A stretch of 64,000 bases of DNA, from UHGV virus genome UHGV-0038492. One strand, 5' to 3'. The stretch's first letter is position 1. Every line of letters begins with the position of its first letter. This DNA is from a virus. The translations under genes and the position numbers were made by a program. The notes beneath the pieces are model-generated. The model was not told the DNA's origin. It made no database searches and worked only from the letters and a program-made list of their open reading frames with translations. Shown piece after piece: positions 35,356 to 64,000 of this stretch.

Positions 35356-36288
35356 ATGTATTTGTACAAAAGTAAAAAAGTAAAAGGTATTAAAGACTGC
35401 CTTAGACAAATGGGGAGTCAGCATCTAGAAAATGTCATGGAAGAAAACCAAACAAAAGAAAATCCTGTCTCGAAATGGATAAAAAAGAATCGTAACCATT
35501 TAACCAATTCCTTTATACCCTACGACACTGAGTTAGGTCTCAAAGATCCACGTTCCCTTCACGCACAAACGTTGGCAATCGGGTGGCTATATGGCGGGGT
35601 TTCCTTAATATCCAACCAAGCACTTAGAGAACTTGTTTTCGAGACTGAGATGCCCAGTAAATTCCCTGAAGAATGGTTGGACTTTATACCCGCATGGACT
35701 GTGGCAATCGACGTAGGTAAAGAGGATGAGACTTTCTTTCTCGGCTATCGAAAAAATGGGAAGAGAAGGTTTATTATAATCGCTACAAATACTGATTACG
35801 GGTTAACAGAAGGAGTTACCACAATTGCCACTTGTTCGTTAGAGCTTCGTAGTGCAGGGAACGGGCTTGTGGAAATCGACTACGACGACGGTGTGGAGAA
35901 CGAACAAGAAAGGATGTTATGGTTATCTCTGGCCAAAGCCGCCACATCGATGATATTTCTGTGCACGCTAATCCCGCCTAATTACAGGGAGTCTTTTAAT
36001 GATATTAAGTTCAGGGAAATCAAAAAGAACGGTAGTATTAGTTACGACGTTAAACCGCGAGAACGTGATGTTAAGGTAGATATCACACCAGGACAAGTAA
36101 AATATCTAAAAGGATTTAACACCGACTTGAAAGCCATGCAGGGTATCAAACACGCCAAAGCTGCGCACATTCGTCGTGCCCACTGGCGTAGATATTGGGT
36201 TGGCCCAAGAAACGGTGAAAGAAAAAGAAAACTTTGCTGGATTCCACCGACATTTGTCCGAGGCTACGTACCCCACACGCAAGACTAG
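35356..36288 (+). CDS. hypothetical protein (310 aa); HIRRAHW-motif paralogue A
   Basis: RBS AGGAG; C-terminus KAAHIRRAHWRRYWVGP...CWIPPTF. Confidence 0.7.
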   Translation: MYLYKSKKVKGIKDCLRQMGSQHLENVMEENQTKENPVSKWIKKNRNHLTNSFIPYDTELGLKDPRSLHAQTLAIGWLYGGVSLISNQALRELVFETEMPSKFPEEWLDFIPAWTVAIDVGKEDETFFLGYRKNGKRRFIIIATNTDYGLTEGVTTIATCSLELRSAGNGLVEIDYDDGVENEQERMLWLSLAKAATSMIFLCTLIPPNYRESFNDIKFREIKKNGSISYDVKPRERDVKVDITPGQVKYLKGFNTDLKAMQGIKHAKAAHIRRAHWRRYWVGPRNGERKRKLCWIPPTFVRGYVPHTQD

Positions 36289-36298
36289 GAGAATTATA

Positions 36299-37183
36299 AT
36301 GTTAAGACGCAGAATTTATGGAGATACGCTTCGACGTATTAGTGAAGCTATAGAGACTGCACACAAAGACTTGTTTGGTCTGAAAGAAGATCGGTTTCTA
36401 ACGTTTGTCAGGGAACACAAGAGACAACTCCCCGTAACCTTTCTGCCCGTTAACGACCCAACGTACCGTGAGTTCGGCACCACCAAACAGGTGCCGTATT
36501 CTATTCGCCAGTCGTTAGGTTTGGGTTGGCAATACGCAGGTATTGAAATTATCTCTGATAACGAGTTGATGGGATTACTTGCAGACACAGAACGTTTAAC
36601 GGATATTCCGTACGCGTGGATTGAAGCCATCCCATCATTCACCTTTTCCGTGACTGTCAAGATTAATGAACTTCCTGCTACGCTCTTTATCGGTCGTCGT
36701 AAATTCGAAGGTGAAGAAGTATTGTTCGTTTTACGATGGGTGGAGATAAATCAGCGGCACTGTTGGACGACCAAGATTTATCGGTTCAACAGAAAGGCAG
36801 ATGACTTTGTTAGTTTAGAGCCTTACTTTGCTAACGAGTCAAAGGACGAGGAACTTCTGGATGAGGTACATATCGGTTTATATCTTTCCTCGCGGGTGAA
36901 GAAATCGGAACGCGAGAGACGGGAATACCGTGGTAGAACGACACGTTACGTACCTGATACAGAAATCCTTCCACGCAGAGAACCTGTCGTTGTTGACGTA
37001 AGTCCAGTACAACGCGAAGACTTAGAGAAACAACGCAGGGAAGGTAGGAGAATCTGTTTAACGCCGCATCGCGCAGCACACATACGCAGGGCACATTGGA
37101 AACGGGTCTGGTGTGGGCCAATGACAGGACCACGCTGGCAGGAGTGGCGATGGATTGCACCCACCTTTATATCCGGTTTTTAG
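36299..37183 (+). CDS. hypothetical protein (about 294 aa); HIRRAHW-motif paralogue B
   Basis: Track ORF 36176-37183 trimmed to ATG 36299 preceded by AGGAGAA; C-terminus RAAHIRRAHWKRVWCGP...WRWIAPTF; full-length similarity to paralogue A. Confidence 0.7.
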   Translation: MLRRRIYGDTLRRISEAIETAHKDLFGLKEDRFLTFVREHKRQLPVTFLPVNDPTYREFGTTKQVPYSIRQSLGLGWQYAGIEIISDNELMGLLADTERLTDIPYAWIEAIPSFTFSVTVKINELPATLFIGRRKFEGEEVLFVLRWVEINQRHCWTTKIYRFNRKADDFVSLEPYFANESKDEELLDEVHIGLYLSSRVKKSERERREYRGRTTRYVPDTEILPRREPVVVDVSPVQREDLEKQRREGRRICLTPHRAAHIRRAHWKRVWCGPMTGPRWQEWRWIAPTFISGF

Positions 37184-39947: not shown

Positions 39948-40247
39948 ATGCGTTATCAAACGGAGATTGTGGAACGCTTAAGTGAAGGTTTAGCCAGCGT
40001 CAGCCTGGAAACAGCAGCGGCATTTCGTGAGACTTTCGCTACTTTCTTTCCCGATCGTGAATCTTTTTGTTTAAAGGTCGGTGAATATTATTCCAAGTTA
40101 CTCGAACACTACGGTTATCCGCCGGTGAAATTCGACGTACCTGAAAACACCGACGACATCAGTTATTGGATTGAAACCCTCGAAGCAGGGACACTATCCA
40201 ACTTGCGTAAGGCGGTAGAAAATGAAACTCGATCCAGCGCGGCGTAA
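39948..40247 (+). CDS. hypothetical protein (99 aa)
   Basis: Track ORF; RBS AAGGAG. Confidence 0.6.
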   Translation: MRYQTEIVERLSEGLASVSLETAAAFRETFATFFPDRESFCLKVGEYYSKLLEHYGYPPVKFDVPENTDDISYWIETLEAGTLSNLRKAVENETRSSAA

Positions 40248-40890
40248 AAAAGCAGAAGCTTACGCCTTACAAATCTTAAACCTGGTTGACCCCTCTGGGA
40301 TTAACGCGGAAGCAGCAAAGAAAGCCTTTGCTCGAATGACGGACGAACAGTTTAATCGTCTTCGTGAAGGGCTACCGATTTACAACCCGGTCGGTAGTAA
40401 AGTTAAAATAGACCACATGCGAAACGTTAAGCTTTGTCGTGTTTTAGGTTTGAACCTGGAACAACGGTTGTGGTTAACTGAACCGAAAACGGGTGTTTTC
40501 CATCGTACTCGCTATCCTCATCTGGTGCTACGTTTACCTGCGCGTCGTCAAACACAGATGCAAGAAAAGAAAATGGCGGTAGCGAAGAACGACAAAGTTC
40601 GTGATAAACTCTCCGGTCAGGTTGTTGGTCCTTCTAAAGCATCTGGTGTGTCCTTCCCAGAAGCGTACATCATGTACTCCGATGGTCACGACTGGACACT
40701 GAAAGAGTTTCTGTGGGCGCGTGGGGGTAACGAAGCGTTACAACGTGCGTTCTATCAATCGTTACGTCAAACCGGTAAGGGACGTATTGACCTACCGGGG
40801 GCAGAACGTACCAGTTCAAAAGCAACACGTACCTGGTCTGCGTATCTGAAAGCGATGCACATTGGTAACAACATAGGCCATCCGTCATGA
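40222..40890 (+). CDS. hypothetical protein (222 aa)
   Basis: Track ORF; overlaps the upstream gene by 26 nt. Confidence 0.6.
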   Translation: MKLDPARRKKAEAYALQILNLVDPSGINAEAAKKAFARMTDEQFNRLREGLPIYNPVGSKVKIDHMRNVKLCRVLGLNLEQRLWLTEPKTGVFHRTRYPHLVLRLPARRQTQMQEKKMAVAKNDKVRDKLSGQVVGPSKASGVSFPEAYIMYSDGHDWTLKEFLWARGGNEALQRAFYQSLRQTGKGRIDLPGAERTSSKATRTWSAYLKAMHIGNNIGHPS

Positions 40891-53864: not shown

Positions 53865-56800
53865 TTAACCTGCACGTCTAACGTTAAGCTGTCGTGCTGG
53901 CTGTTCAACGGACATTTGTCGTGATGCTGAACCTGCTGGTGCCGTAGGTTTAGACGATACAGTGTTTTGTACCGGCTGCGGGCGTTGTTTAAGGATCGTG
54001 ACAATCTCTTTGAGATAACCCGCCGATTCTTTTGCAACAGCCAACTGTTGAACACTAATCGGATCACCACTGCTGAGAGTAGGCCCGTTTTGTGCATCAG
54101 AAGTAACCGCAGGTGCCGGTTTACTCGTCGCTGCTGCACGCTGCACAGCACCTTCTTTCACCTTCTCGACATCCTCTTCCGGCAACCCTTCATTTCTGGC
54201 TCCGGCTGCAACAGTCTCCCCAATCACTGAGGCATCACCGCCTGCACTACTACCGCCAGGTGACGGTACTGCTGGGCCACCACTGGTTGCGGCTTTGACG
54301 TTGTCAGCACCCATCGCGCCTTTCTCTGCTAACGCATCGTCACGACGCTCAGCATTCGATGCAGGTAGGTTATCAGCCGGATCAGAAATCGACGGATCAT
54401 TAGCTGCTCCTGCTGCTACCGCCGGAGAGGAGGCAACCGCAGGCGTTAGCCCTTTCACCATGTCTTTCGTTGAAGCCGGATTAGCCGCAATTTCGTTTGT
54501 CGCCACAGCACCCATGCGGCGGTTCAGTTCATTAATAACTTCACCAACAGTACGAATACGAACAATCTGTTTGCCACGCATTTCGTAGAAGACCCCCTTA
54601 TTACCTCTAAGGATTTGAGGAGTAATGCCTTCTGCTTTGTCGGCTGGCATGTTCGGATTCTGACGCCACGCATTAAGGAACTTCTTACCACCGCCTGGAC
54701 CCAAGAAGTGATACAGATACGCAACAGCCGGAGGCGGCTCTACACCACCCAGGTCTTTCTGCGCCTGCATGATATTGTCACGAATAAACTGTACGCCGAG
54801 GATGGTATTTGCCCACGGGTCATACTGGTTTACTTGCGGTATACCGTACCGACGAGAATATCCTTTCATCATTCCAGACCACGTTTTGTCAATGAACTGG
54901 AACAACCCTGCTGCCGACGCACCTGGGTTCTTGACACCGTATTTGAAACCAGATTCGGCGTTCGCCATCGCAATCGCGACCGCAGGCGGAACACCTAAGG
55001 TATTTGCGACATCCGCAATCATCGCTTTAACGCCGTCTACGTTAGGTGACTCACCACTACCCAGTTTACTGATTGGATATTTCTCAGCCAAGGTTTTGTA
55101 GTCACCCTCTTTGACGTCTCCGAGTTTAATCCCAGATTGGCCCGTAGAGAACTTCGCGTAATTGCTAATACCCATCTCACCCACAACTTGAGACAAGTCG
55201 CCCGGAGTACCGTAAGACGCACCACCGTTTGGCAAGTACCCATCGTTAGACGCTGTACCCCAATCAACGACACCTTTGAAACGATCTTTGGTGTCTTCGT
55301 CGGTTTGGTACATTCTCGTCGCACGATCGGCTTTCTGCCACTTCGCACGTTTACCCGCTGCGGGTGTAGACCGCAGGGTATTACGAACAGCCAGGTCAGG
55401 TTCTTTGGACAGTTCTTTCAGGTTGGCAAGTTCGGTAGCAACAGAACCTGCGTCGGTGTTTGCTTCTTCACCCAGTGGGTTGAATGGAATCTCCCACACG
55501 GACTGACGAATACCACCCTTCATGTTGTAAGCGCCACGAATCATCAACGCCAATTCGTACATGAACCCACCGGATACTTTCAGTTCGGTAGGGTCTGCTT
55601 GCGGAATGTAACGTTTCAGACCAACAACGTAGGTCATATACGCCGGTAAGAAACGGTTGTAGAACCAGTTCTTACAACGCTCCTCTTTAGGGCCACCTAT
55701 CAGGTCAGGCGAGATAACCGCAATGGCTTCTTTCCAGTTGCCTTTATAGGTACAGTTCTTCACATCAATGTCTTTCAACACGTTCTTCTCTAACAGCGTG
55801 AAAAGATTACGTGTTGTTTGGTTGATAGTAACTGCGCCATAGGTCTTCCACCTGATCGATTCCAGGTCTTCCAAATCGCTTTTCTTCGGTAACGAATGCC
55901 AATCAACTTGGATTTGAACCTGCTCGGTTCCATCTTCCCAACCTTCAACCTTCGCAACTTTCTCGTTACGTTCAGCATCCGCATTCGCCAGTACCTGACT
56001 GGTTTCAGCAACAGACGCAACTTTATGTCCTTCGACAGCGTCACGCATACCCGAACGTTGTTTCCGTTTGTCGTCAGTACGCATGTTGATTGACCGCCAC
56101 ACACGTTCCTGTGCTTCGACAACCTCTTCCCCTGACAAGAACTCTGCCGGAGTAAAGGTAACGAAGTCCCACGCTTTAGAGAACCAACCCTGGTTAACTT
56201 TACGCGGGTCAGTCAACGAACGGAACTCCGCAGAATCTTTACCCATCTTCATTTTGTTGTAGAGGGTAATCATGTCCGCTTTCGACACTTTCTTCGGATC
56301 ACCGACATCTGCTAGAGCGATATCGTTATCCATGGACTTCAGTGCTGAAATCCAGCGGAGGTAAATCGGTGCGAAACGTTGTAGCATAAACGCAGTAAAT
56401 GCTAACATCTCACCACGTTCTTCTAAGTTAACACCGAACCCTTCTGCGAGTTTCTTCACGTCTTCGGAAGACAAGCCACGTAATTGTGCTTCACCCCCTT
56501 CGGTATACGAGACGTAAGGTTTCAAAGCGTCTTCTAAATAACGGGCTTTCATACCGTCTTCAGAAGACCACTGGTCGTAGTCACGGAAACCGTATTGTGC
56601 CAGACGCATATAGTCGAGGTATTGTGCTTTCACACGGGTGGCGCATTTATACGCCCAATAACCCAGACCAGCGACAGTCGCACCGATCGCAATTGCAGGC
56701 CATCCCACCGCCGCTACCACCGTAGACGCAGCCGAGGCTACCGCAGTCACTGCCGGAACCGCTAAACGTTGTACGGCAAACTTACCAACGTTCCACGCTG

Positions 56801-59800
56801 CTTTACCAAGGAACCCGGTGGGTTTAAAAATACCCCACTTCGCAACTTTACCCAGTATCGAACCCACCGTACCTAAGATACTCACGATTGGCCCTACTAA
56901 CGGTAAGTCTTTGAGGAAGTCCATCACCCCGCCTTTACGTCCTTTCTGCTCAGCGGTTTTCTTGGCTTTCTCTTCTTCTTTAGAACGTCTACGACGACGG
57001 AAGAATTGGAAGTAGTCACGTTTTTCATCGTTGGCTGCCGGTTTGTTACGCTGTCCGAACTTACTGAACATCGTACGAATCAGGCCATCTGGTGCACCGG
57101 CTCGCTCCGCAGAATCACGCATGGTGTTAAACCAGGACATTTCCTGAAGGTTAACCATCCGGTTCAAACGTTCCAGTAATGCTGAACCAACACTCTTCGC
57201 TTTCTGCTTACCTTTGTTGATAACGCGTCCTGCGGTATCCGTTGCGGTTTCGAAATCCTCCTTCGCTGCGTTAAACACGCGTGTTGGAGAAACCTTACCA
57301 CGAGCGTACAAGTGTTGGCGGTAAAACTCCGCAACGTCGTCATCACGACCTGCTAAACGCGACTCCGCCCGATAACGTGTGGCAATGTCGTAGCGTGGAT
57401 CACGGAAACTATCTACTGTTTCGCCAAAGCGTCCACGGAAACGGCCAAACCACCCTTTACCCGCAGCACCCCAACGAGACAGTCTATCGCCAACGCCATG
57501 ACGGAAACGTGAGAATCGGTCACGTTGTCTGCCTCGCCAATCCCGGAAATTCTGGAAGTAGTCTTTAAATCCGTCGCGGAAATCCTTAACACGGTTAAGC
57601 ATCCCTTTGATAGATTTCGAGCCAACGTTTTTCTCCAGTTGCTCCGTCCAGGATTCATCTTCAGGCTCACCGTCTAAACGACGGTTAAGGAGTTTATAGA
57701 TACGAATCAGGATATGGTTGGTCTTACGGCCATTCGACCAAGAGAACATGCTGAAGCCACCGCCAGAACCACCTTCCTTACGATTCTGCCACCACCGGGT
57801 AAGCGGGTTGTCAGTCGCTAACTCTTTGAATTTCTCAAAGCCACGTTTTGCATTGTTCCACAAACGAGCAGGCATTCCGGTTACGCGAGAAATCATGCTT
57901 TGTAAACGCGTTTTCTCACTGCCCTCAGGAATCTCATTAAGCCACTCACGCGCTTTCTCGAAGATAGACGCTGCTCTTGGCGAGATTAGTCCAATCAGTT
58001 TCTTCGGTAAGTTAACAGCTTTGTTTACTGCTGTACCTGCTTTACCGGAGATATACTGGAACAGGGCCTGGAGTTTACCGCCTTTATAGAAGCGCAATTT
58101 ACCTGCTGCCGCTAGATCGGCCGCTGCGAGAATCAAGTTCCCGGCTTCGTCGACAATATCACGACCTAGCTTAATGTCGTCTAACGAACGGAGTTGTACC
58201 AGCTTATTAGTCTTAGGGTCAGCCTGATAATACTCACCTGCCTCTAAGCGGCTACCTTGTAAAACGACATTGCCTTTTTCGTCGTAGATGTCTCGAACAC
58301 CAAGAACACCTTTCCCGAAGGCGACCGCTGAATTCCAGCCTGTGGACAATGTACCAGTAACTAAACCTTTCAGTCGTTCAAAAACACCCGGGCCGTCAGA
58401 TGGGCCACCGGAGAATTTCCCACGGATAAAACTGCCCAGTGACTGTAAACGTCCTTTCCCTCTCAGGAACATGTTCTTCGCAAAACGACCTGCACCCGTA
58501 CCGGTGTCCCAAAGTACGCCCGCCCAACGACGGAACAGACCGCTTTCACCAAGCACGATGCGTTTACGCTTGCGTTTGTTACCGGCGCTACCTGCATCTT
58601 CAGAAGTGTCATCCTCACCGTCACGACCACCGCCTAAGCTGGCCAGCAGAATACCCTCCTCATCCATGTTCTTGACATGTTTCAGAATTTCCTGCACGGT
58701 GTTGGATTCGGATTTGTTACGGATAGCATCGACGATTCTATCAAACTGCTGTTCTAGTCCTGCGGTGGTATCAGGGCGTTCACTTAACAGTTCAACAAAG
58801 TTGGTGGATTTTTCACCGTAAAGGACAGCAGCAAGTTGTCGTGCTGACAGTCCACGACCACCACGACCGCCTTTACCTTTAACGGAGTCAATCGTCGACT
58901 CGTCACCGGTTACGGAGGCGTCTACCCCTAAACGACGCAAATAGTCACCTAACGCAGAACCGTTTTTCAGTTTGCGCTGGATTTCTTGTTCACGCGTTAA
59001 CGAACGGCCGGAACGGGTTTTCCCCATGGCCAGGTCATTAAACAGCGTATACGGATCGTTAATGTCTTTATCTACATCAAACCGATCGTTCTTCGCATCG
59101 TACTTAAAGATGCCTGCATCACGTAACGCATTCTCACCGTAGATAATTGAAGCTTCGTCTACCGTGTTTTGACGTGCACGTATCGTTGACTGAATGGCTG
59201 AAATCTTACTAGCAATCTCATTGCTAAGTTCGTGATGACCGCCTGTCAGTTCTGAAGACCGTGCTTCTAAGACCGCCTGAATCGCTTCTACCGCGTTTGC
59301 ATTCATGTAACGATACATGTGCATCGGGTCTTTCAGCAGACTGCCTACGTCGAATGCCTTACCTTCAGACGCACGGGATTCAATATAGTCCGCCAGCGCC
59401 TGGCGAGTTTTCGAATCCAGGGTTTTGTCTTTGTCGATAAAGTCAACGGTTTCGTTAATGTACTGCTGTAAACGCTTCCGCTGTTCATCGTTCGCAACCG
59501 CTTTACGGACACGGTTACCGATAACTTTACGGTCAATCATCCCACGCGTGGTTAAATCGTACACCTGGTCGTGGTGTTCGCCGTACCCGCGACGAATAGA
59601 TTTGTTAATCTCCGTCAGCAAAGTCGGGATGACTTCCGTGATGCTAAGATACGCTTTACGGTCGAACTTCGCGGCGGCGGATAACGCTTCTGCTGAACGT
59701 TCTTCTAAAGCTAATCCCTCACGACGCAGCGGTGTCACTAACCCCATCTCGTGCATTAAACGGAAGACGGTGGCCAATGGGCCGTCTATCTCACCAGCAA

Positions 59801-60998
59801 TCGCCGAGTTAGAGATAGACGATAAGTTACCGAACCCGTATCGTGCCAGCTGAAGCCGTTTCATGACTTCTGGGTTCTTTTCTAACTCACTGCGTGTCCA
59901 GTTCTGTAAACGTTCTACCTGAGGCTGTAAGAATCGTTTTGCTAACCAACTACCAGCAAACCCTGCGACTTTACCTCGGGAGTTCGTACGACGACGTTCT
60001 GGCGACAGCGTAGAACTATCTTCCATGCCGAAGTCGTCTTCCTGACTCATTGACAGAACTTGTTCTAATATCCCGCGTCCGTCGCTGAAGATATTCGAAA
60101 TCTTTTTCTTCGCGTTCTCACGAATCTGATCAATAAAGTTATCCGCGTAACGCAAGGGGTTCATCCATTCGGCAGCTTTACGTTTTACGTTAGCCCAACG
60201 AACTTCAGAGAATTCCTCTTTTGCGTAGTCCGGCAACGCGGTGTTTTTAACAATCGCTTCAAGTGCCGGGGTGTTACGGCTAAACTCATCCTGTTTAAGT
60301 TTAGCAATATCTTGCAACGCGAATAACGTACGGTATTGCAGCTCTAACTGTTTACGCTGAACGTTAAGCATTACCCCACGACTTAAACTGGTCGTCAGGT
60401 TAACGTCTTTCGCAATACCGATAACCGTCTGGAACAGCGCATCGGACTTCATGTCCTTGATGGTGTCGCGAAGACGGTCTTCTACCATTCCTTCCTGAAC
60501 CTCGCGTTGTTGTTCAGGTGTTTGTGGTGTGCCTGCAAAAACAGAGTCTAACTCACGATCCATTAACGCTTGTTTAGGATCGTAATTCCCGTAATCGTAC
60601 TGGTCGCTTTTCGCCCACTTGTCGATCTTACGGGTTACACTGTCAGGCAAATACCGTTTTAGGGTTGGGCCTAACTGACGAGCTTGTGCCTTCACTACAC
60701 GGGAGGTCTTTTCAATCTCGTCTTTCGTATGGGCCAGAATGTCTTGACCTGCGGCTTTGACGTTCTTATAACCTTCATAAGCGTCAGTCGCCGGTTTTGG
60801 CATTCCTTTTAAAATGACCTGATCACGTTTATTTTCGGGCCAGATAGTCGACAACGCCGACTTACGGGCAGCACGAAATGTGTCCATGACCGGGTTACGC
60901 GATTGGTCTTGTTGACGAGGGGGCTCATCAAAATCGTCCCAGTCGTCCATGTTATCAAGATCGATTTCATCGAAATCGTCTTTACCTTTTTTAGCCAT
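53865..60998 (-). CDS. giant virion protein (2377 aa) with internal hydrophobic region and soluble-lytic-transglycosylase domain; resembles phiKZ gp181-type tail / ejection protein
   Basis: Single 7134-nt ORF; N-terminus MAKKGKDDFDEIDLDNMDDWDDFDE; hydrophobic stretch LPLVGPIVSILGTVGSILGKV...AVTAVASAASTVVAAVGWPAIAIGATVAGLGYWAY; SLT motif NAESGFKYGVKNPGASAAGLFQFIDKTW encoded near 54880-54950. Confidence 0.85.
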   Translation of the reverse strand: MAKKGKDDFDEIDLDNMDDWDDFDEPPRQQDQSRNPVMDTFRAARKSALSTIWPENKRDQVILKGMPKPATDAYEGYKNVKAAGQDILAHTKDEIEKTSRVVKAQARQLGPTLKRYLPDSVTRKIDKWAKSDQYDYGNYDPKQALMDRELDSVFAGTPQTPEQQREVQEGMVEDRLRDTIKDMKSDALFQTVIGIAKDVNLTTSLSRGVMLNVQRKQLELQYRTLFALQDIAKLKQDEFSRNTPALEAIVKNTALPDYAKEEFSEVRWANVKRKAAEWMNPLRYADNFIDQIRENAKKKISNIFSDGRGILEQVLSMSQEDDFGMEDSSTLSPERRRTNSRGKVAGFAGSWLAKRFLQPQVERLQNWTRSELEKNPEVMKRLQLARYGFGNLSSISNSAIAGEIDGPLATVFRLMHEMGLVTPLRREGLALEERSAEALSAAAKFDRKAYLSITEVIPTLLTEINKSIRRGYGEHHDQVYDLTTRGMIDRKVIGNRVRKAVANDEQRKRLQQYINETVDFIDKDKTLDSKTRQALADYIESRASEGKAFDVGSLLKDPMHMYRYMNANAVEAIQAVLEARSSELTGGHHELSNEIASKISAIQSTIRARQNTVDEASIIYGENALRDAGIFKYDAKNDRFDVDKDINDPYTLFNDLAMGKTRSGRSLTREQEIQRKLKNGSALGDYLRRLGVDASVTGDESTIDSVKGKGGRGGRGLSARQLAAVLYGEKSTNFVELLSERPDTTAGLEQQFDRIVDAIRNKSESNTVQEILKHVKNMDEEGILLASLGGGRDGEDDTSEDAGSAGNKRKRKRIVLGESGLFRRWAGVLWDTGTGAGRFAKNMFLRGKGRLQSLGSFIRGKFSGGPSDGPGVFERLKGLVTGTLSTGWNSAVAFGKGVLGVRDIYDEKGNVVLQGSRLEAGEYYQADPKTNKLVQLRSLDDIKLGRDIVDEAGNLILAAADLAAAGKLRFYKGGKLQALFQYISGKAGTAVNKAVNLPKKLIGLISPRAASIFEKAREWLNEIPEGSEKTRLQSMISRVTGMPARLWNNAKRGFEKFKELATDNPLTRWWQNRKEGGSGGGFSMFSWSNGRKTNHILIRIYKLLNRRLDGEPEDESWTEQLEKNVGSKSIKGMLNRVKDFRDGFKDYFQNFRDWRGRQRDRFSRFRHGVGDRLSRWGAAGKGWFGRFRGRFGETVDSFRDPRYDIATRYRAESRLAGRDDDVAEFYRQHLYARGKVSPTRVFNAAKEDFETATDTAGRVINKGKQKAKSVGSALLERLNRMVNLQEMSWFNTMRDSAERAGAPDGLIRTMFSKFGQRNKPAANDEKRDYFQFFRRRRRSKEEEKAKKTAEQKGRKGGVMDFLKDLPLVGPIVSILGTVGSILGKVAKWGIFKPTGFLGKAAWNVGKFAVQRLAVPAVTAVASAASTVVAAVGWPAIAIGATVAGLGYWAYKCATRVKAQYLDYMRLAQYGFRDYDQWSSEDGMKARYLEDALKPYVSYTEGGEAQLRGLSSEDVKKLAEGFGVNLEERGEMLAFTAFMLQRFAPIYLRWISALKSMDNDIALADVGDPKKVSKADMITLYNKMKMGKDSAEFRSLTDPRKVNQGWFSKAWDFVTFTPAEFLSGEEVVEAQERVWRSINMRTDDKRKQRSGMRDAVEGHKVASVAETSQVLANADAERNEKVAKVEGWEDGTEQVQIQVDWHSLPKKSDLEDLESIRWKTYGAVTINQTTRNLFTLLEKNVLKDIDVKNCTYKGNWKEAIAVISPDLIGGPKEERCKNWFYNRFLPAYMTYVVGLKRYIPQADPTELKVSGGFMYELALMIRGAYNMKGGIRQSVWEIPFNPLGEEANTDAGSVATELANLKELSKEPDLAVRNTLRSTPAAGKRAKWQKADRATRMYQTDEDTKDRFKGVVDWGTASNDGYLPNGGASYGTPGDLSQVVGEMGISNYAKFSTGQSGIKLGDVKEGDYKTLAEKYPISKLGSGESPNVDGVKAMIADVANTLGVPPAVAIAMANAESGFKYGVKNPGASAAGLFQFIDKTWSGMMKGYSRRYGIPQVNQYDPWANTILGVQFIRDNIMQAQKDLGGVEPPPAVAYLYHFLGPGGGKKFLNAWRQNPNMPADKAEGITPQILRGNKGVFYEMRGKQIVRIRTVGEVINELNRRMGAVATNEIAANPASTKDMVKGLTPAVASSPAVAAGAANDPSISDPADNLPASNAERRDDALAEKGAMGADNVKAATSGGPAVPSPGGSSAGGDASVIGETVAAGARNEGLPEEDVEKVKEGAVQRAAATSKPAPAVTSDAQNGPTLSSGDPISVQQLAVAKESAGYLKEIVTILKQRPQPVQNTVSSKPTAPAGSASRQMSVEQPARQLNVRRAG

Positions 60999-61027
60999 AA
61001 CGTTTAATCCGTATCAGGAGATTTAGC

Positions 61028-62653
61028 GTGAATAAACTTAATTGGGTTGACTTTTATCTGCTCAATGTAAACAAGTCTCTTGTGTCGCGATTACGACCCG
61101 TCACGACCACAGATACTTTTCAAGGGTTGACAAAAAACTTTCACCCTGAAGGGTTATACTCCACGGAGATATTCGGTCTTACGGGAAGTGAAGCCCGAGA
61201 CTCAACGTTTTCTTACATTGATATTAAATTAGATATCATTTCGCCGACGGTGTGTTTGGCGTTATTCCAACTAAAACAACTCTACGAAGAAATTTGTTCT
61301 GGAAAACGCTACGCAACCTGGAGCGAAAAAGAAAAAGATTTTGAACCGGCTTTGCCTGGCGACGCTGGCGCAGATACCGGTTTTAACTTTTTCCTTAGTC
61401 ACTACAACGACTTAAAACCCGGACGTAACGAATCGTTACAACGTGACGAAACGGTGGATTTCTTCGAGAAGTTCCGTCCCGTGAGTCTTAGCCGCTATGT
61501 TCTCGTATTACCCGCGGGCTTACGTGATTTGGTGGTTAGACAAGACGGTAGGGAACAGGAAGAGGAAATCGGCGGGTTATATCGTCGTTTGATTTCTTTG
61601 GCCAGGGCGATTCCTGACCGTGCTACACGGGTTGAATTAACGAACCCTGTGCGATGGAAGCTCCAACAAACCTTTAACGAAATCTGGATGTACTTCTTTA
61701 ACATCCAGGACGGTAAAGGGGGCTTCCAACGTCGTAAAGTGACGTCACGTAAACTGATGAACGGGACACGTAACGTATTGTCCTCATTCTCCACAGGCTC
61801 TAAATGCATGGGGCGTGAGGATGCGATTCGACCAACTGACACCAAAATTGGTTTGTATCAGGGTCTGAAAGCGTTACTGCCGGTTGCGCAATACCAGATA
61901 CGTGAACGTTACCTCGGTAACATTCGTGCTGGCGATGGCAACCTTTACGGCGTAAACACCAAAACGCTTAAACGCGAGTTCTTGGAAGTTGGGGGTCGAG
62001 TTTACGACACCTTTACCACGGACGACGGTATCGAAACATTAATTAACCGGATGGAAGCTCGCGAGCTTCGTCATCAACCGTTAATGATTAACGATACCCA
62101 TTACGTCGCGTTGGTCTACCAAGACAACAAACATTTTAAGGTGTTCTACGATATCGATGAACTGCCTAAAACGTTTGACCGTAAAAACGTCCATGGAATG
62201 ACCCTGGTAGAACTACTCTACTTATCGGGTTACGATCTGTGGAACAACTATTTCGGTTTCGTTACACGTTATCCCGTCACCGGTCGAGGCTCGACGTACT
62301 CATCGACCATAAGATTGGAGACCACCACGTCATCTTTATACTTAAAAGAACTGGAAGATGACTGGGAGACTGAAAAGCCTCGCGGGGCAATCAGTTATCC
62401 TGACCGCTCGGTTCCAACCTTTGTTGAGTCGATGGCACCGCACCCGTCACGACTGGGTGGCTTAGGGGGCGACTACGATGGTGACACCGGTTCACTTAAC
62501 GCGCCTATGTCGCAAGAAGCGCTCGAGGAAAACCGTAACTGGATACACTCGAAGAACTACTGGTTCGATTCTGACGGGAATTTCAAAATCAATCCTGTCA
62601 ACAACGTGATTAAACGTGCGACGCAAGCGTTATTAAAGAATCCAAAAGGCTAA
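61028..62653 (+). CDS. beta-prime-like subunit fragment of a split multisubunit RNA polymerase (N-terminal part incl. catalytic DxDGD), 541 aa
   Basis: GTG start preceded by AGGAG; [14 protein letters not shown] resembles beta-prime [36 protein letters not shown] resembles [44 protein letters not shown] resembles the catalytic [22 protein letters not shown] (E. coli beta-prime recalled from memory). Confidence 0.8.
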   Translation: [541 protein letters not shown]

Positions 62654-62656
62654 TCA

Positions 62657-64000
62657 ATGCTGCTCATTAAACAGTTTAACCAACGCTTCTCTGTGCGTAA
62701 AACAGACGAGTTTGGTAATCCGAGGATTATCCCGCTCGAGAAGCTCCAGATACCACGAGGCTCCATACTGCACGTCGTGGATCTCGATCAGGTGGTCTTA
62801 GCACCACCTGCTACGCTGGAAATCATCCAGCCGTTGGAAAAACCTGCACAAATTCGCCACCACTTTAAACTTCCCGAAGAAGGGATTAGTGGGCATCCAC
62901 GTAACAAACCTGTGCAGGGGCAAGAACGTGCTATCTTTGCGTACCATCGCGCTAACCGTCCAATTCGTCGTCTGACTTCAGATGACCTGATTCGTAAAGA
63001 CTTAAAAGTTCTCCTTATCGAGAACTACACACCGATGTTATCGCACTACTATTATCCAGACACACAATTAGCCTGGTACGATAGACTGCGTAACATCCAG
63101 CTGTTAATGACCAACCAGTTCAAATACGACACGCAGGAATACATGCGTCAGAACTACTTCGTAATTGAGCTGGGGTCAACGTTACCGTCTTTCCAGAAGT
63201 TCCAAACGACGTATAACGATCGCGTTAAAAGCAAGATTGAAAAGTTCCAGGACTTTAACCTGCTGTGGTTGTTGGAACTGTTCGCTTGGGCGTACGGTAA
63301 ACAGTCTGATTCTCTGTTTGCGGGAATGGACTTAACGCAACTGTCTCGAATGAACTTCATCTTCACCCACAACGGCGGCTTTACGTCGATGAACATGGGT
63401 GTCGTGGAGAAGATGCGTAAATCGTCCGGTGGTCGTTTAAGTGACGACCAGATGGCCAGGATGTTCTATCGTACGTTAGTGCGTGTAATGACACAAGCAC
63501 CGTCTAATGCGTACGAAGCTGAATTCCTGACACCGGAAGGTGATGAACGTATCTTTGTTAAAGACATCGAAGAAGAGACGGTTGACGTCGCTGACGATGG
63601 AGACGTTGTTAACGACGCTGTGGTTGAATCGGATAACGCTTTCGATGAAAAAGAAGACCTCGTTATTGAGGAACCGAAAGAAGACGTTAAGCCGACGACT
63701 ATCGTTATCGAAAAAACGATTGCCCACGATGACATTATCAAACAGGAAGCGCAGAAACTGGCTGAGGCGGGCCGCTTAAGCTCTAAAGCGTATCAGTTCC
63801 TGTCTGATTCGACTAAACGTTTCGTTCAGTTACCGAACCCGTATAACCCGAAAGAAACTTACGGTGAAGCATTAACCGTTCACGAAAAAGACATTGCCGT
63901 GAAAGCGGAACCGAAGAAAGTCCAGCGACTGGTTACGGATGAAGGTTGGGCAGAAAACGTCACCGACCAAATGGTGAAACAATACAACCAGACCATGATG
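62657..64000 (+). CDS. hypothetical protein, N-terminal 448 aa (partial; continues past window end)
   Basis: ATG 62657 four nt after the preceding stop; frame appears open to the window end (not in track, consistent with no in-window stop). Confidence 0.6.
   Translation, partial: MLLIKQFNQRFSVRKTDEFGNPRIIPLEKLQIPRGSILHVVDLDQVVLAPPATLEIIQPLEKPAQIRHHFKLPEEGISGHPRNKPVQGQERAIFAYHRANRPIRRLTSDDLIRKDLKVLLIENYTPMLSHYYYPDTQLAWYDRLRNIQLLMTNQFKYDTQEYMRQNYFVIELGSTLPSFQKFQTTYNDRVKSKIEKFQDFNLLWLLELFAWAYGKQSDSLFAGMDLTQLSRMNFIFTHNGGFTSMNMGVVEKMRKSSGGRLSDDQMARMFYRTLVRVMTQAPSNAYEAEFLTPEGDERIFVKDIEEETVDVADDGDVVNDAVVESDNAFDEKEDLVIEEPKEDVKPTTIVIEKTIAHDDIIKQEAQKLAEAGRLSSKAYQFLSDSTKRFVQLPNPYNPKETYGEALTVHEKDIAVKAEPKKVQRLVTDEGWAENVTDQMVKQYNQTMM

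What the first reader, a model, noticed from the sequence alone, without database searches (positions are those of the whole stretch)
61028..62653. Beta-prime-like fragment of a split multisubunit RNA polymerase, start only 29 bp from the divergent giant virion gene
Three blocks align with the double-psi-barrel active-site region of bacterial beta-prime, including DYDGD for the catalytic DFDGD and the following P-[LM]-[ST]-x-EA-x-xE. At 541 aa, ending about 50 residues after the catalytic motif, it matches the N-terminal beta-prime pieces of the split virion and non-virion RNAPs of phiKZ-like jumbo phages. In phiKZ (recalled from memory, not checked) the vRNAP beta-prime fragment is adjacent to the giant gp181 gene, as here. 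This is the main evidence for the phage-family assignment and implies host-RNAP-independent transcription.
Basis: partly seen in the sequence, partly recalled or inferred. Interest (0 to 1): 0.6.

Follow-up and report, generated by a model that had tools for sequence, protein, structure and literature searches.

The report
Jumbo-phage virion RNA polymerase β′ N-terminal subunit
This gene encodes the catalytic-site piece of the multi-part RNA polymerase that phiKZ-like giant phages pack into their heads and inject with their DNA; it is a clear orthologue of well-studied proteins (SPN3US gp240, phiKZ gp180), so the call is correct but ordinary.

Summary
The ORF is real: 61028-62653 (+), 541 aa, GTG start with an AGGAG 7 nt upstream, 29 bp from the divergent 2377-aa gene. 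DYDGD lies at residues 482-486, 55 residues before the stop.

It is the β′ N-terminal (β′N) subunit of a jumbo-phage virion RNA polymerase (vRNAP):
- PHROG 2986, E = 1.8e-235.
- 86% identical to Salmonella phage SPN3US gp240.
- 32% identical to phiKZ gp180 (E = 1e-75), against E = 0.13 for the non-virion paralogue phiKZ gp55.
- A family profile hits only β′/γ chains in the PDB (best 4e-13, AR9 nvRNAP β′N).
- An AlphaFold model (pLDDT 80) gives 581 Foldseek PDB matches; all 50 listed are RNAP entries.
- D482, D484, G485 and D486 are invariant in 25 diverse homologues.

Synteny matches SPN3US and phiKZ. Two partner subunit genes are in the window: βN (62657 to the window end) and βC (40222-40890).

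Published work shows the orthologues are head-packaged, injected and needed for host-independent early transcription.

Novelty is low. The phage is absent from the phage collection, but the exact protein occurs in Salmonella assemblies.

One side observation: relatives, including phiKZ, carry a group I intron inside the catalytic motif. This gene is intron-less.

The parts
61028..62653 (+). Gene for the vRNAP β′ N-terminal subunit (β′N), 541 aa; orthologue of SPN3US gp240 and phiKZ gp180.
   Evidence: ORF. PHROG 2986 E = 1.8e-235. 86% identity to SPN3US gp240. 32% identity and E = 1e-75 to phiKZ gp180. Profile and fold hits only to RNAP β′.
61016..61020 (+). Shine-Dalgarno AGGAG, 7 nt before the GTG start.
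   Evidence: Read from the sequence. Conserved as CAGGAG + 7 nt + GTG in SPN3US and SPFM13. N-terminal residues 1-18 are conserved across the family.
61502..61630 (+). β′ block 1 (residues 159-201): VLPAGLRDL...LYRRLI.
   Evidence: HMMER alignments to plastid and cyanobacterial β′/γ. Profile stretch 136-254 aligns to E. coli β′ 213-356. A163 and R166 are invariant; P162, G164 and D167 are ≥90% conserved.
61709..61795 (+). β′ block 2 (residues 228-256): [26 protein letters not shown], counterpart of [23 protein letters not shown].
   Evidence: K230, R241, G246, T247, R248 and V250 are invariant.
62252..62500 (+). β-strand-rich region around the active site (residues 409-491, six predicted strands), read here as the double-psi β-barrel.
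   Evidence: AlphaFold strands E409-415, 423-431, 436-442, 449-458, 469-471 and 487-491. Foldseek matches to RNAP β′. The barrel topology itself was not checked.
62471..62485 (+). Catalytic Mg2+-binding motif D482-Y-D484-G-D486 (DYDGD).
   Evidence: Sequence. D482, D484, G485 and D486 are invariant in 25 homologues; position 483 is F in 16, Y in 6, H in 3. Aligns to NADFDGD of cellular β′.
60999..61027 (.). 29-bp head-to-head spacer between β′N and the giant virion gene.
   Evidence: SPN3US has the same spacer length. No σ70-like promoter lies in it.
53865..60998 (-). Divergent 2377-aa virion gene with a C-terminal lytic transglycosylase domain; counterpart of phiKZ gp181 and SPN3US gp239.
   Evidence: PHROG 3201 and transglycosylase PHROG 4067 at residues 1987-2246. 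PF01464 SLT on the identical gene in public contigs. Synteny.
62657..64000 (+). Start of the vRNAP βN gene (SPN3US gp241 / phiKZ gp178 counterpart), 3 nt after the β′N stop; cut off by the window end (1388 aa in full-length contigs).
   Evidence: Open frame of 448 codons. PHROG 3148 E = 1.1e-127. 1388-aa gene call in contigs L007-L010.
40222..40890 (+). vRNAP βC subunit gene (222 aa), orthologue of SPN3US gp218.
   Evidence: 86% identity, E = 4e-152 to SPN3US gp218. PHROG 3233 'RNA polymerase beta subunit' E = 1.7e-93. The subunit role comes from PMC5105663.

Best explanation
The ORF encodes the β′ N-terminal subunit (β′N) of the virion-packaged multisubunit RNA polymerase (vRNAP) of a Chimalliviridae jumbo phage close to Seoulvirus SPN3US and Erwinia phages Asesino and phiEaH2.

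Shown here: the protein has the fold and conserved blocks of the N-terminal half of bacterial β′. It keeps the invariant Asp triad (D482, D484, D486), which in all multisubunit RNAPs holds the catalytic Mg2+. It stops 55 residues after that motif, and its best cellular matches include the naturally split cyanobacterial/plastid γ (RpoC1). It is orthologous to the virion paralogue, not the non-virion one. It sits 3 nt upstream of the βN gene, so the two are probably co-transcribed and translationally coupled.

Inferred from experiments on the orthologues: β′N assembles with βN, βC, β′M and β′C into a five-piece core with no α or ω. The complex is made in the middle/late phase and enters the prohead in a βN-dependent way, at about 10 copies per virion in phiKZ. 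It is ejected with the DNA and transcribes early phage genes without the host RNAP. It stays outside the phage nucleus.
For: PHROG 2986 E = 1.8e-235 over residues 3-536. 86% identity to SPN3US gp240 and 85% to Asesino and phiEaH2. 32% identity and E = 1e-75 to phiKZ gp180 over residues 11-482, against E = 0.13 (BLASTP) and 0.12 (hhalign) for the non-virion phiKZ gp55. The family profile matches 86 PDB sequences at E ≤ 1; all 60 shown are β′ or γ, the best being AR9 nvRNAP β′ at 4e-13. AlphaFold model pLDDT 80. Foldseek finds 581 PDB matches at E ≤ 1e-3; all 50 listed are RNAP entries, led by the AR9 nvRNAP entries and followed by cyanobacterial and plastid RNAP chains. D482, D484, G485 and D486 are invariant. 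Synteny with SPN3US gp239-gp240-gp241 and phiKZ gp181-gp180-(gp179)-gp178. Partner genes βN and βC are in the window. SPN3US gp240 was detected in heads by mass spectrometry and lost with gp42, gp218 and gp244 in a gp241 amber mutant (PMC5105663). phiKZ gp180 is present at about 10 per virion, co-precipitates gp178, gp80 and gp149, is injected and is excluded from the nucleus (PMC10612078). σ70-like promoters around the gene are not above chance: 1 found against 2.4 expected.
Against: Nothing contradicts it. Limits: Pfam finds nothing even at E ≤ 10, and single-sequence PDB hits are weak (E ≥ 0.06), so the link to cellular β′ rests on profiles and fold. Foldseek TM-scores are modest (0.31-0.45), as expected for one extended subunit modelled alone. 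The catalytic loop 478-485 is modelled with low confidence. Virion location, activity and host independence were not measured for this phage. β′M and β′C lie outside the window.
Confidence: 0.95

Rival explanations
1. It is the β′N subunit of the non-virion RNAP (the phiKZ gp55 / AR9 nvRNAP type), made early, imported into the phage nucleus and used for late transcription.
For: The best solved-structure match is the AR9 nvRNAP β′ chain. AR9 nvRNAP β′ also has DYDGD.
Against: That ranking only reflects that no vRNAP orthologue ranked above AR9 nvRNAP β′ in the PDB searches. Direct comparison gives E = 1e-75 to virion gp180 against E = 0.13 to non-virion gp55. Synteny is with the virion genes. 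The orthologue gp240 is a head protein. The paralogue in a related Salmonella jumbo phage (SPFM1) matches only weakly, E = 7e-6 over 62 aa (H74).
Confidence: 0.02
2. It is a catalytically inert head or ejection protein that keeps a β′-like fold, a relic of an RNAP gene.
For: It is very divergent from cellular β′ (12-14% identity in structural alignments). Pfam finds nothing. F is replaced by Y in the motif.
Against: The D-x-D-G-D triad and about 50 other positions are invariant down to 37% identity, which indicates purifying selection on the active site. Position 483 varies freely (F, Y, H) in the family. The AR9 nvRNAP β′ chain, solved as core and as holoenzyme bound to a promoter-like oligonucleotide, also has DYDGD. 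The partner βN (gp241) is essential in SPN3US.
Confidence: 0.02
3. The ORF, or its motif similarity, is a chance feature.
For: None beyond the absence of a Pfam hit.
Against: 1168 homologues, PHROG E = 1.8e-235 and the exact protein on at least 22 independent contigs with the same neighbours.
Confidence: 0.005

Closest known systems
Salmonella phage SPN3US gp240 (vRNAP β′N; Seoulvirus, Chimalliviridae)
   Same: 86% amino-acid identity over 537 residues. Same GTG start and Shine-Dalgarno, same 29-bp divergent spacer to the giant gp239-like gene, and the same downstream βN gene. gp240 is head-associated by mass spectrometry and depends on gp241 for packaging (PMC5105663).
   Different: Here 541 aa against 537 aa. 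The gap to βN is 3 nt against 18 nt. In megablast of this region the best matches are Erwinia phages at about 74% DNA identity, and no SPN3US record appears, so this is a different species or lineage.
Pseudomonas phage phiKZ gp180 (vRNAP β′N)
   Same: Orthologue (32% identity, E = 1e-75). Divergent neighbour of the giant transglycosylase gene gp181, with the βN gene gp178 downstream. Shown experimentally to be in virions, injected and part of the vRNAP complex (PMC10612078).
   Different: phiKZ gp180 is interrupted between D and F of the DFDGD motif by about 1.44 kb containing the gp179 ORF and a group I intron (RF00028, 92 bits). The window's gene is continuous. The spacer to gp181 is 75 bp against 29 bp. 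The motif is DFDGD against DYDGD.
Bacillus phage AR9 non-virion RNAP β′ N-terminal subunit (PDB 7S00/7S01 chain d)
   Same: Closest solved structure (profile E = 4e-13; Foldseek E = 3e-16). Same split β′N architecture and the same DYDGD variant.
   Different: It is the non-virion paralogue and is shorter (426-448 residues in the solved chains). Identity is only 13-14%, and the significant sequence alignment covers only residues 37-256.
Cyanobacterial and plastid RpoC1 (γ / β′ N-terminal half), and bacterial β′
   Same: Same fold and conserved blocks. The γ subunits are also β′ N-terminal halves (profile E 2e-10 to 3e-7; Foldseek about 1e-13). That the phage split coincides with the cyanobacterial one is stated in PMC7598289.
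   Different: About 12% identity. No Pfam RNA_pol_Rpb1 domain reaches any threshold. Only three, non-conserved cysteines, so no conserved four-Cys Zn site. The phage enzyme works without α and ω homologues (literature).

Membership tests
Jumbo-phage virion RNAP β′N subunit (phiKZ gp180 / SPN3US gp240; PHROG 2986) | Full-length sequence homology to gp180 and gp240 | tested here: met
   PHROG 2986 E = 1.8e-235, profile positions 2-538 of 539. 86% identity to gp240. E = 1e-75 to gp180.
Jumbo-phage virion RNAP β′N subunit (phiKZ gp180 / SPN3US gp240; PHROG 2986) | Homology and fold of the N-terminal half of multisubunit-RNAP β′, including the active-site barrel | tested here: met
   86 PDB sequence matches at E ≤ 1; the 60 shown are all β′/γ. 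581 Foldseek matches; all 50 listed are RNAP entries. Six-strand region 409-491 in the model; the barrel topology itself was not checked.
Jumbo-phage virion RNAP β′N subunit (phiKZ gp180 / SPN3US gp240; PHROG 2986) | Catalytic D-x-D-G-D Mg2+-binding triad | tested here: met
   DYDGD at 482-486. D482, D484, G485 and D486 are invariant in 25 homologues.
Jumbo-phage virion RNAP β′N subunit (phiKZ gp180 / SPN3US gp240; PHROG 2986) | Polypeptide ends shortly after the active-site barrel (split β′) | tested here: met
   Stop 55 residues after the motif. Family lengths are about 535-545 aa. The split site is described in PMC7598289.
Jumbo-phage virion RNAP β′N subunit (phiKZ gp180 / SPN3US gp240; PHROG 2986) | Closer to the virion than to the non-virion paralogue | tested here: met
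   gp180 E = 1e-75 against gp55 E = 0.13 and 0.12.
Jumbo-phage virion RNAP β′N subunit (phiKZ gp180 / SPN3US gp240; PHROG 2986) | Conserved gene neighbourhood: divergent from the giant SLT-domain virion gene, followed by βN | tested here: met
Jumbo-phage virion RNAP β′N subunit (phiKZ gp180 / SPN3US gp240; PHROG 2986) | The four partner subunits (βN, βC, β′M, β′C) are encoded in the same genome | tested here: inconclusive
   βN (62657 onward) and βC (40222-40890) were found. By synteny, β′M (gp42-like) and β′C (gp244-like) would lie outside the 64-kb window.
Jumbo-phage virion RNAP β′N subunit (phiKZ gp180 / SPN3US gp240; PHROG 2986) | Physically present in the virion head and injected with the DNA | not testable with these tools
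   Shown only for orthologues: SPN3US gp240 (PMC5105663) and phiKZ gp180 (PMC10612078).
Jumbo-phage virion RNAP β′N subunit (phiKZ gp180 / SPN3US gp240; PHROG 2986) | Supports early transcription independent of host RNAP (rifampicin-insensitive) | not testable with these tools
   Literature on phiKZ-type phages. The only indirect hint here is that σ70-like promoters are not above chance.
Jumbo-phage non-virion RNAP β′N (phiKZ gp55 type) | Best reciprocal similarity to gp55-type proteins | tested here: not met
   BLASTP E = 0.13 and hhalign E = 0.12 (probability 0.5%) to phiKZ gp55.
Cellular RpoC / RpoC1 (bacterial β′, cyanobacterial γ) | Pfam RNA_pol_Rpb1 domains at gathering score | tested here: not met
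   No Pfam family even at E ≤ 10. Identity to cellular β′ is 11-14%.
Cellular RpoC / RpoC1 (bacterial β′, cyanobacterial γ) | N-terminal four-Cys zinc-binding element | tested here: not met
   Only three cysteines in the protein (C76, C90, C260), and none is among the invariant or ≥90% conserved columns.

The most novel reading that the evidence does not exclude
This β′N gene is an intron-less allele at a recurrent group I intron insertion site, located between the first Asp and the aromatic residue of the catalytic D-F/Y-DGD motif. The site is occupied in phiKZ and in several uncultured relatives. The gene could therefore be a natural target for intron-encoded homing endonucleases of co-infecting jumbo phages. 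The mechanism would be the interference competition shown for PhiPA3 gp210 against the phiKZ vRNAP β gene. The Tyr codon and other synonymous differences at the site might reflect escape from such cleavage.
Probability: 0.12. Interest if true: 0.4.

Novelty: new member of a known kind. Interest (0 to 1): 0.15.

Why it matters
The gene anchors the window to the Chimalliviridae (phiKZ-like, nucleus-forming jumbo phages). It predicts that this phage starts infection with its own injected polymerase, making it insensitive to rifampicin-type drugs and to host control of transcription. That has practical value for annotation, because the identical protein is deposited as 'hypothetical protein' in Salmonella assemblies. 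It adds no new biology: the family, its split architecture, its virion location and its role are already established experimentally in SPN3US and phiKZ. One open point remains. No virion-RNAP β′N orthologue ranked above AR9 nvRNAP in either PDB search, so the virion enzyme appears to be structurally uncharacterised.

Tried and rejected
- Pfam scan at E ≤ 10 found nothing.
- Single-sequence phmmer against the PDB gave only weak β′ hits (E ≥ 0.06). A family profile was needed.
- hhalign of the family profile against phiKZ gp55 was not significant. I used this as negative evidence against the non-virion assignment.
- Rfam at gathering threshold on the whole window, and at permissive threshold on 60900-64000, found no RNA family and hence no intron in this gene.
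- ARAGORN found no tRNA in the window.
- The σ70 promoter and terminator scan around the gene was not above the shuffled expectation, and nothing lies in the 29-bp spacer.
- translated the downstream gene one base out of frame; one search corrected it.
- fetched the wrong phiKZ stretch (gp194-266); one search corrected it.
- One search failed on a file path; it was rerun.
- I considered and rejected a later start at codon V19. That would match the 519 aa listed for gp240 in Table 5 of PMC5105663. Residues 1-18 ([16 protein letters not shown]) are conserved across the family, and the GTG with its SD is conserved in SPN3US.

Full report
**1. Observation**

An AGGAG lies at 61016-61020, 7 nt upstream of the start.

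The divergent 2377-aa ORF occupies 53865..60998 on the - strand, so the spacer 60999-61027 is 29 bp. SPN3US and SPFM13 have the same GTG start, the same CAGGAG and the same 29-bp spacer.

Residues 1-18 are conserved across the family. This supports the annotated start over a later one.

DYDGD occupies residues 482-486 (window 62471-62485), and 55 residues follow it.

The three β′-like blocks are visible in the HMMER alignments to plastid and cyanobacterial β′/γ:
- residues 159-201;
- residues 198-294;
- residues 468-505.

**2. What it is**

Pfam finds nothing. PHROG 2986, 'RNA polymerase beta subunit', matches end to end at E = 1.8e-235.

tblastn against 50,697 phage records finds 315 records, essentially all of them jumbo phages. 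The best protein matches are:
- Seoulvirus SPN3US and its relatives at 86.4% identity;
- Erwinia phages Asesino, phiEaH2 and Stratton at about 85%.

DNA identity in this region is only about 74%, and only to the Erwinia phages and to SPAsTU. In SPN3US the orthologue is locus SPN3US_0240, flanked by the giant gp239 and the 1401-aa gp241.

The large protein database holds 1168 homologues. I aligned 25 of them, spanning 37-86% identity to the query. In that alignment D482, D484, G485 and D486 are invariant. The second position of the motif is F in 16 sequences, Y in 6 and H in 3.

A profile built from this alignment matches 86 PDB sequences at E ≤ 1, and all 60 shown are β′ or cyanobacterial/plastid γ:
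- the best is the AR9 non-virion RNAP β′ chain (7S00/7S01 chain d, E = 4e-13), which also has DYDGD;
- plastid and cyanobacterial β′/γ follow at 2e-10 to 3e-7;
- E. coli β′ residues 213-356 align with profile positions 136-254.

An AlphaFold2 model has mean pLDDT 80. It shows six β-strands between residues 409 and 491 around the motif, which I read as the active-site double-psi β-barrel.

Foldseek against the PDB gives 581 matches at E ≤ 1e-3. All 50 listed are RNAP entries, again led by AR9 nvRNAP. TM-scores are modest (0.31-0.45), as expected for a single extended subunit modelled on its own.

**3. Virion or non-virion**

phiKZ gp180, the virion paralogue, aligns over residues 11-482 at 32% identity and E = 1e-75. 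phiKZ gp55, the non-virion paralogue, gives E = 0.13 by BLASTP and E = 0.12 by profile comparison.

gp180 is annotated as a structural head protein and is the divergent neighbour of gp181, 75 bp away. The βN gene gp178 lies downstream.

The giant ORF in the window matches the gp181-type family and has a C-terminal transglycosylase (SLT) domain.

The gene that starts 3 nt after the β′N stop (ATG at 62657) is the βN subunit (PHROG 3148, E = 1.1e-127). It runs off the window end and is 1388 aa in full-length contigs.

A third vRNAP gene is also in the window. ORF 40222-40890 is 86% identical to SPN3US gp218, the βC subunit, and matches PHROG 3233.

**4. How it works**

The steps below come from experiments on the orthologues and are inferred for this phage.

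In SPN3US, gp240 (β′N), gp42 (β′M), gp244 (β′C), gp241 (βN) and gp218 (βC) are head proteins by mass spectrometry. All of them disappear from particles when gp241 carries an amber mutation. This indicates that the complex assembles before packaging (PMC5105663).

In phiKZ (PMC10612078):
- gp180 carries the DFDGD motif;
- it is a middle-gene product;
- it is present at about 10 copies per virion;
- it co-precipitates gp178, gp80 and gp149;
- it is injected with the DNA;

The review PMC7598289 states that both phage β′ paralogues are split after the DPBB domain, at the same site as the cyanobacterial split.

The protein here therefore most likely supplies the catalytic Mg2+ site and the clamp-core part of β′ in an injected, host-independent early-gene polymerase.

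The local scan finds σ70-like promoters no more often than chance: 1 found against 2.4 expected, and none in the 29-bp spacer. That fits, weakly, with transcription by phage enzymes. With only 29 bp between the start codons, I infer that the two promoters lie inside each other's coding sequence. This was not tested.

**5. Comparison and membership**

All testable defining features of the virion β′N family are met:
- full-length homology;
- the β′ fold;
- an invariant catalytic triad;
- a split shortly after the active-site barrel;
- closer similarity to the virion paralogue;
- conserved gene neighbourhood.

Only two of the four partner subunit genes can be seen, because the other two would lie outside the window. 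Virion location and host independence cannot be tested with these tools.

The protein is not a member of the cellular RpoC family in the Pfam sense. It also lacks a conserved four-Cys zinc element: it has only three cysteines, none of them conserved.

**6. Side observation on introns**

phiKZ gp180 as annotated (490 aa) stops at '...LGAD'. The continuation 'FDGDTVSFNAVYSEEAIAE...' is encoded about 1.44 kb further on, beyond the gp179 ORF. A group I intron (RF00028, 92 bits, E = 1e-22) lies just upstream of that second exon.

Four uncultured homologues of 478-479 aa also end at '...LGAD'. In one of them (locus L011), 'FDGDTGSGDS...' resumes 466 nt later, with no ORF in between. A sub-threshold RF00028 match covers that interval (32 bits against a gathering score of 50, E = 2e-6).

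The window's gene is continuous across the homologous site, 62473|62474, and shows no Rfam match.

Introns in these RNAP genes are already noted in the legend of Fig. 7 of PMC5105663. An intron-encoded HNH enzyme in the PhiPA3 vRNAP β gene has been shown to attack the intron-less phiKZ allele (bioRxiv 10.1101/2023.09.30.560319).

**7. Provenance and novelty**

The exact 541-aa protein is on record on at least 22 contigs, always with the same neighbours. These include NCBI assembly GCA_009040705.1 and several sequencing-run assemblies. A 99%-identical cluster of 207 members is named 'hypothetical protein' from Salmonella enterica serovar Wangata and sits on a 220,621-bp contig.

The phage is therefore absent from the phage collection searched but present in public Salmonella data. 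Seoulvirus is classified in the Chimalliviridae.

**Verdict**

This is a new member of a well-known kind, of low interest (0.15).

Noticed in passing
window 62473|62474 (between codons D482 and Y483); L004 10173-11790 (-); L011 4938-5407: There is a recurrent group I intron site inside the catalytic D|F-DGD motif of vRNAP β′N. phiKZ gp180 is split there by about 1.44 kb containing gp179 and an RF00028 intron (92 bits). Four uncultured homologues of 478-479 aa also end at '...LGAD'; in one of them exon 2 resumes 466 nt later, with a sub-threshold RF00028 match and no ORF. The window's gene is the intron-less allele.
   Followed up: partly
whole window; loci L007-L010: The phage is not in the INPHARED phage collection: the best DNA identity is about 74%, to Erwinia phages. 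Yet the exact β′N protein occurs on at least 22 public contigs, including Salmonella enterica assembly GCA_009040705.1. A 99%-identical, 207-member cluster is labelled 'hypothetical protein' from serovar Wangata on a 220.6-kb contig. This suggests a jumbo phage carried along in Salmonella isolate sequencing.
   Followed up: partly
window 61028-61084: Table 5 of PMC5105663 lists SPN3US gp240 as 519 aa, whereas GenBank gives 537 aa. A start at the in-frame GTG at codon 19 would account for the difference. Conservation of residues 1-18 across the family, plus the conserved SD and GTG, favour the longer form.
   Followed up: yes
window 60999-61027 and 62654-62656: The 29-bp head-to-head spacer holds the AGGAG of the β′N gene, and no σ70-like promoter was found in it. 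It appears too short to also hold promoters, so these probably lie within the opposite gene's coding sequence. β′N and βN are separated by only 3 nt, so they are probably co-transcribed and translationally coupled (18 nt in SPN3US).
   Followed up: partly
window 35356-36288 and 36176-37183 (+): Two adjacent ORFs of 310 and 335 aa overlap by 113 nt and both match PHROG 6160 (unknown function). The apparently corresponding stretch of SPN3US (gp210-gp213) holds only small genes of 372-543 nt. This may be a lineage-specific tandem paralogue pair.
   Followed up: no
protein P0090 (692 aa homologue, 49% identity): One uncultured homologue carries a C-terminal extension of about 150 aa beyond the usual β′N end. 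The extension contains an HExxH-type motif (HECAH), which may indicate a fused metallopeptidase-like domain.
   Followed up: no
L006 9924-12576 (phiKZ gp55-gp56): The non-virion β′N gene gp55 of phiKZ (annotated 420 aa) is directly followed by the HNH endonuclease gp56 and then about 370 nt with no annotation. This resembles the gp180-gp179 arrangement, so it may be interrupted in the same way.
   Followed up: no
window 54001-60000: The giant gene region has higher GC (0.50, against about 0.45 elsewhere) and a strongly negative GC skew (-0.11 to -0.14). The skew fits its coding on the - strand.
   Followed up: no
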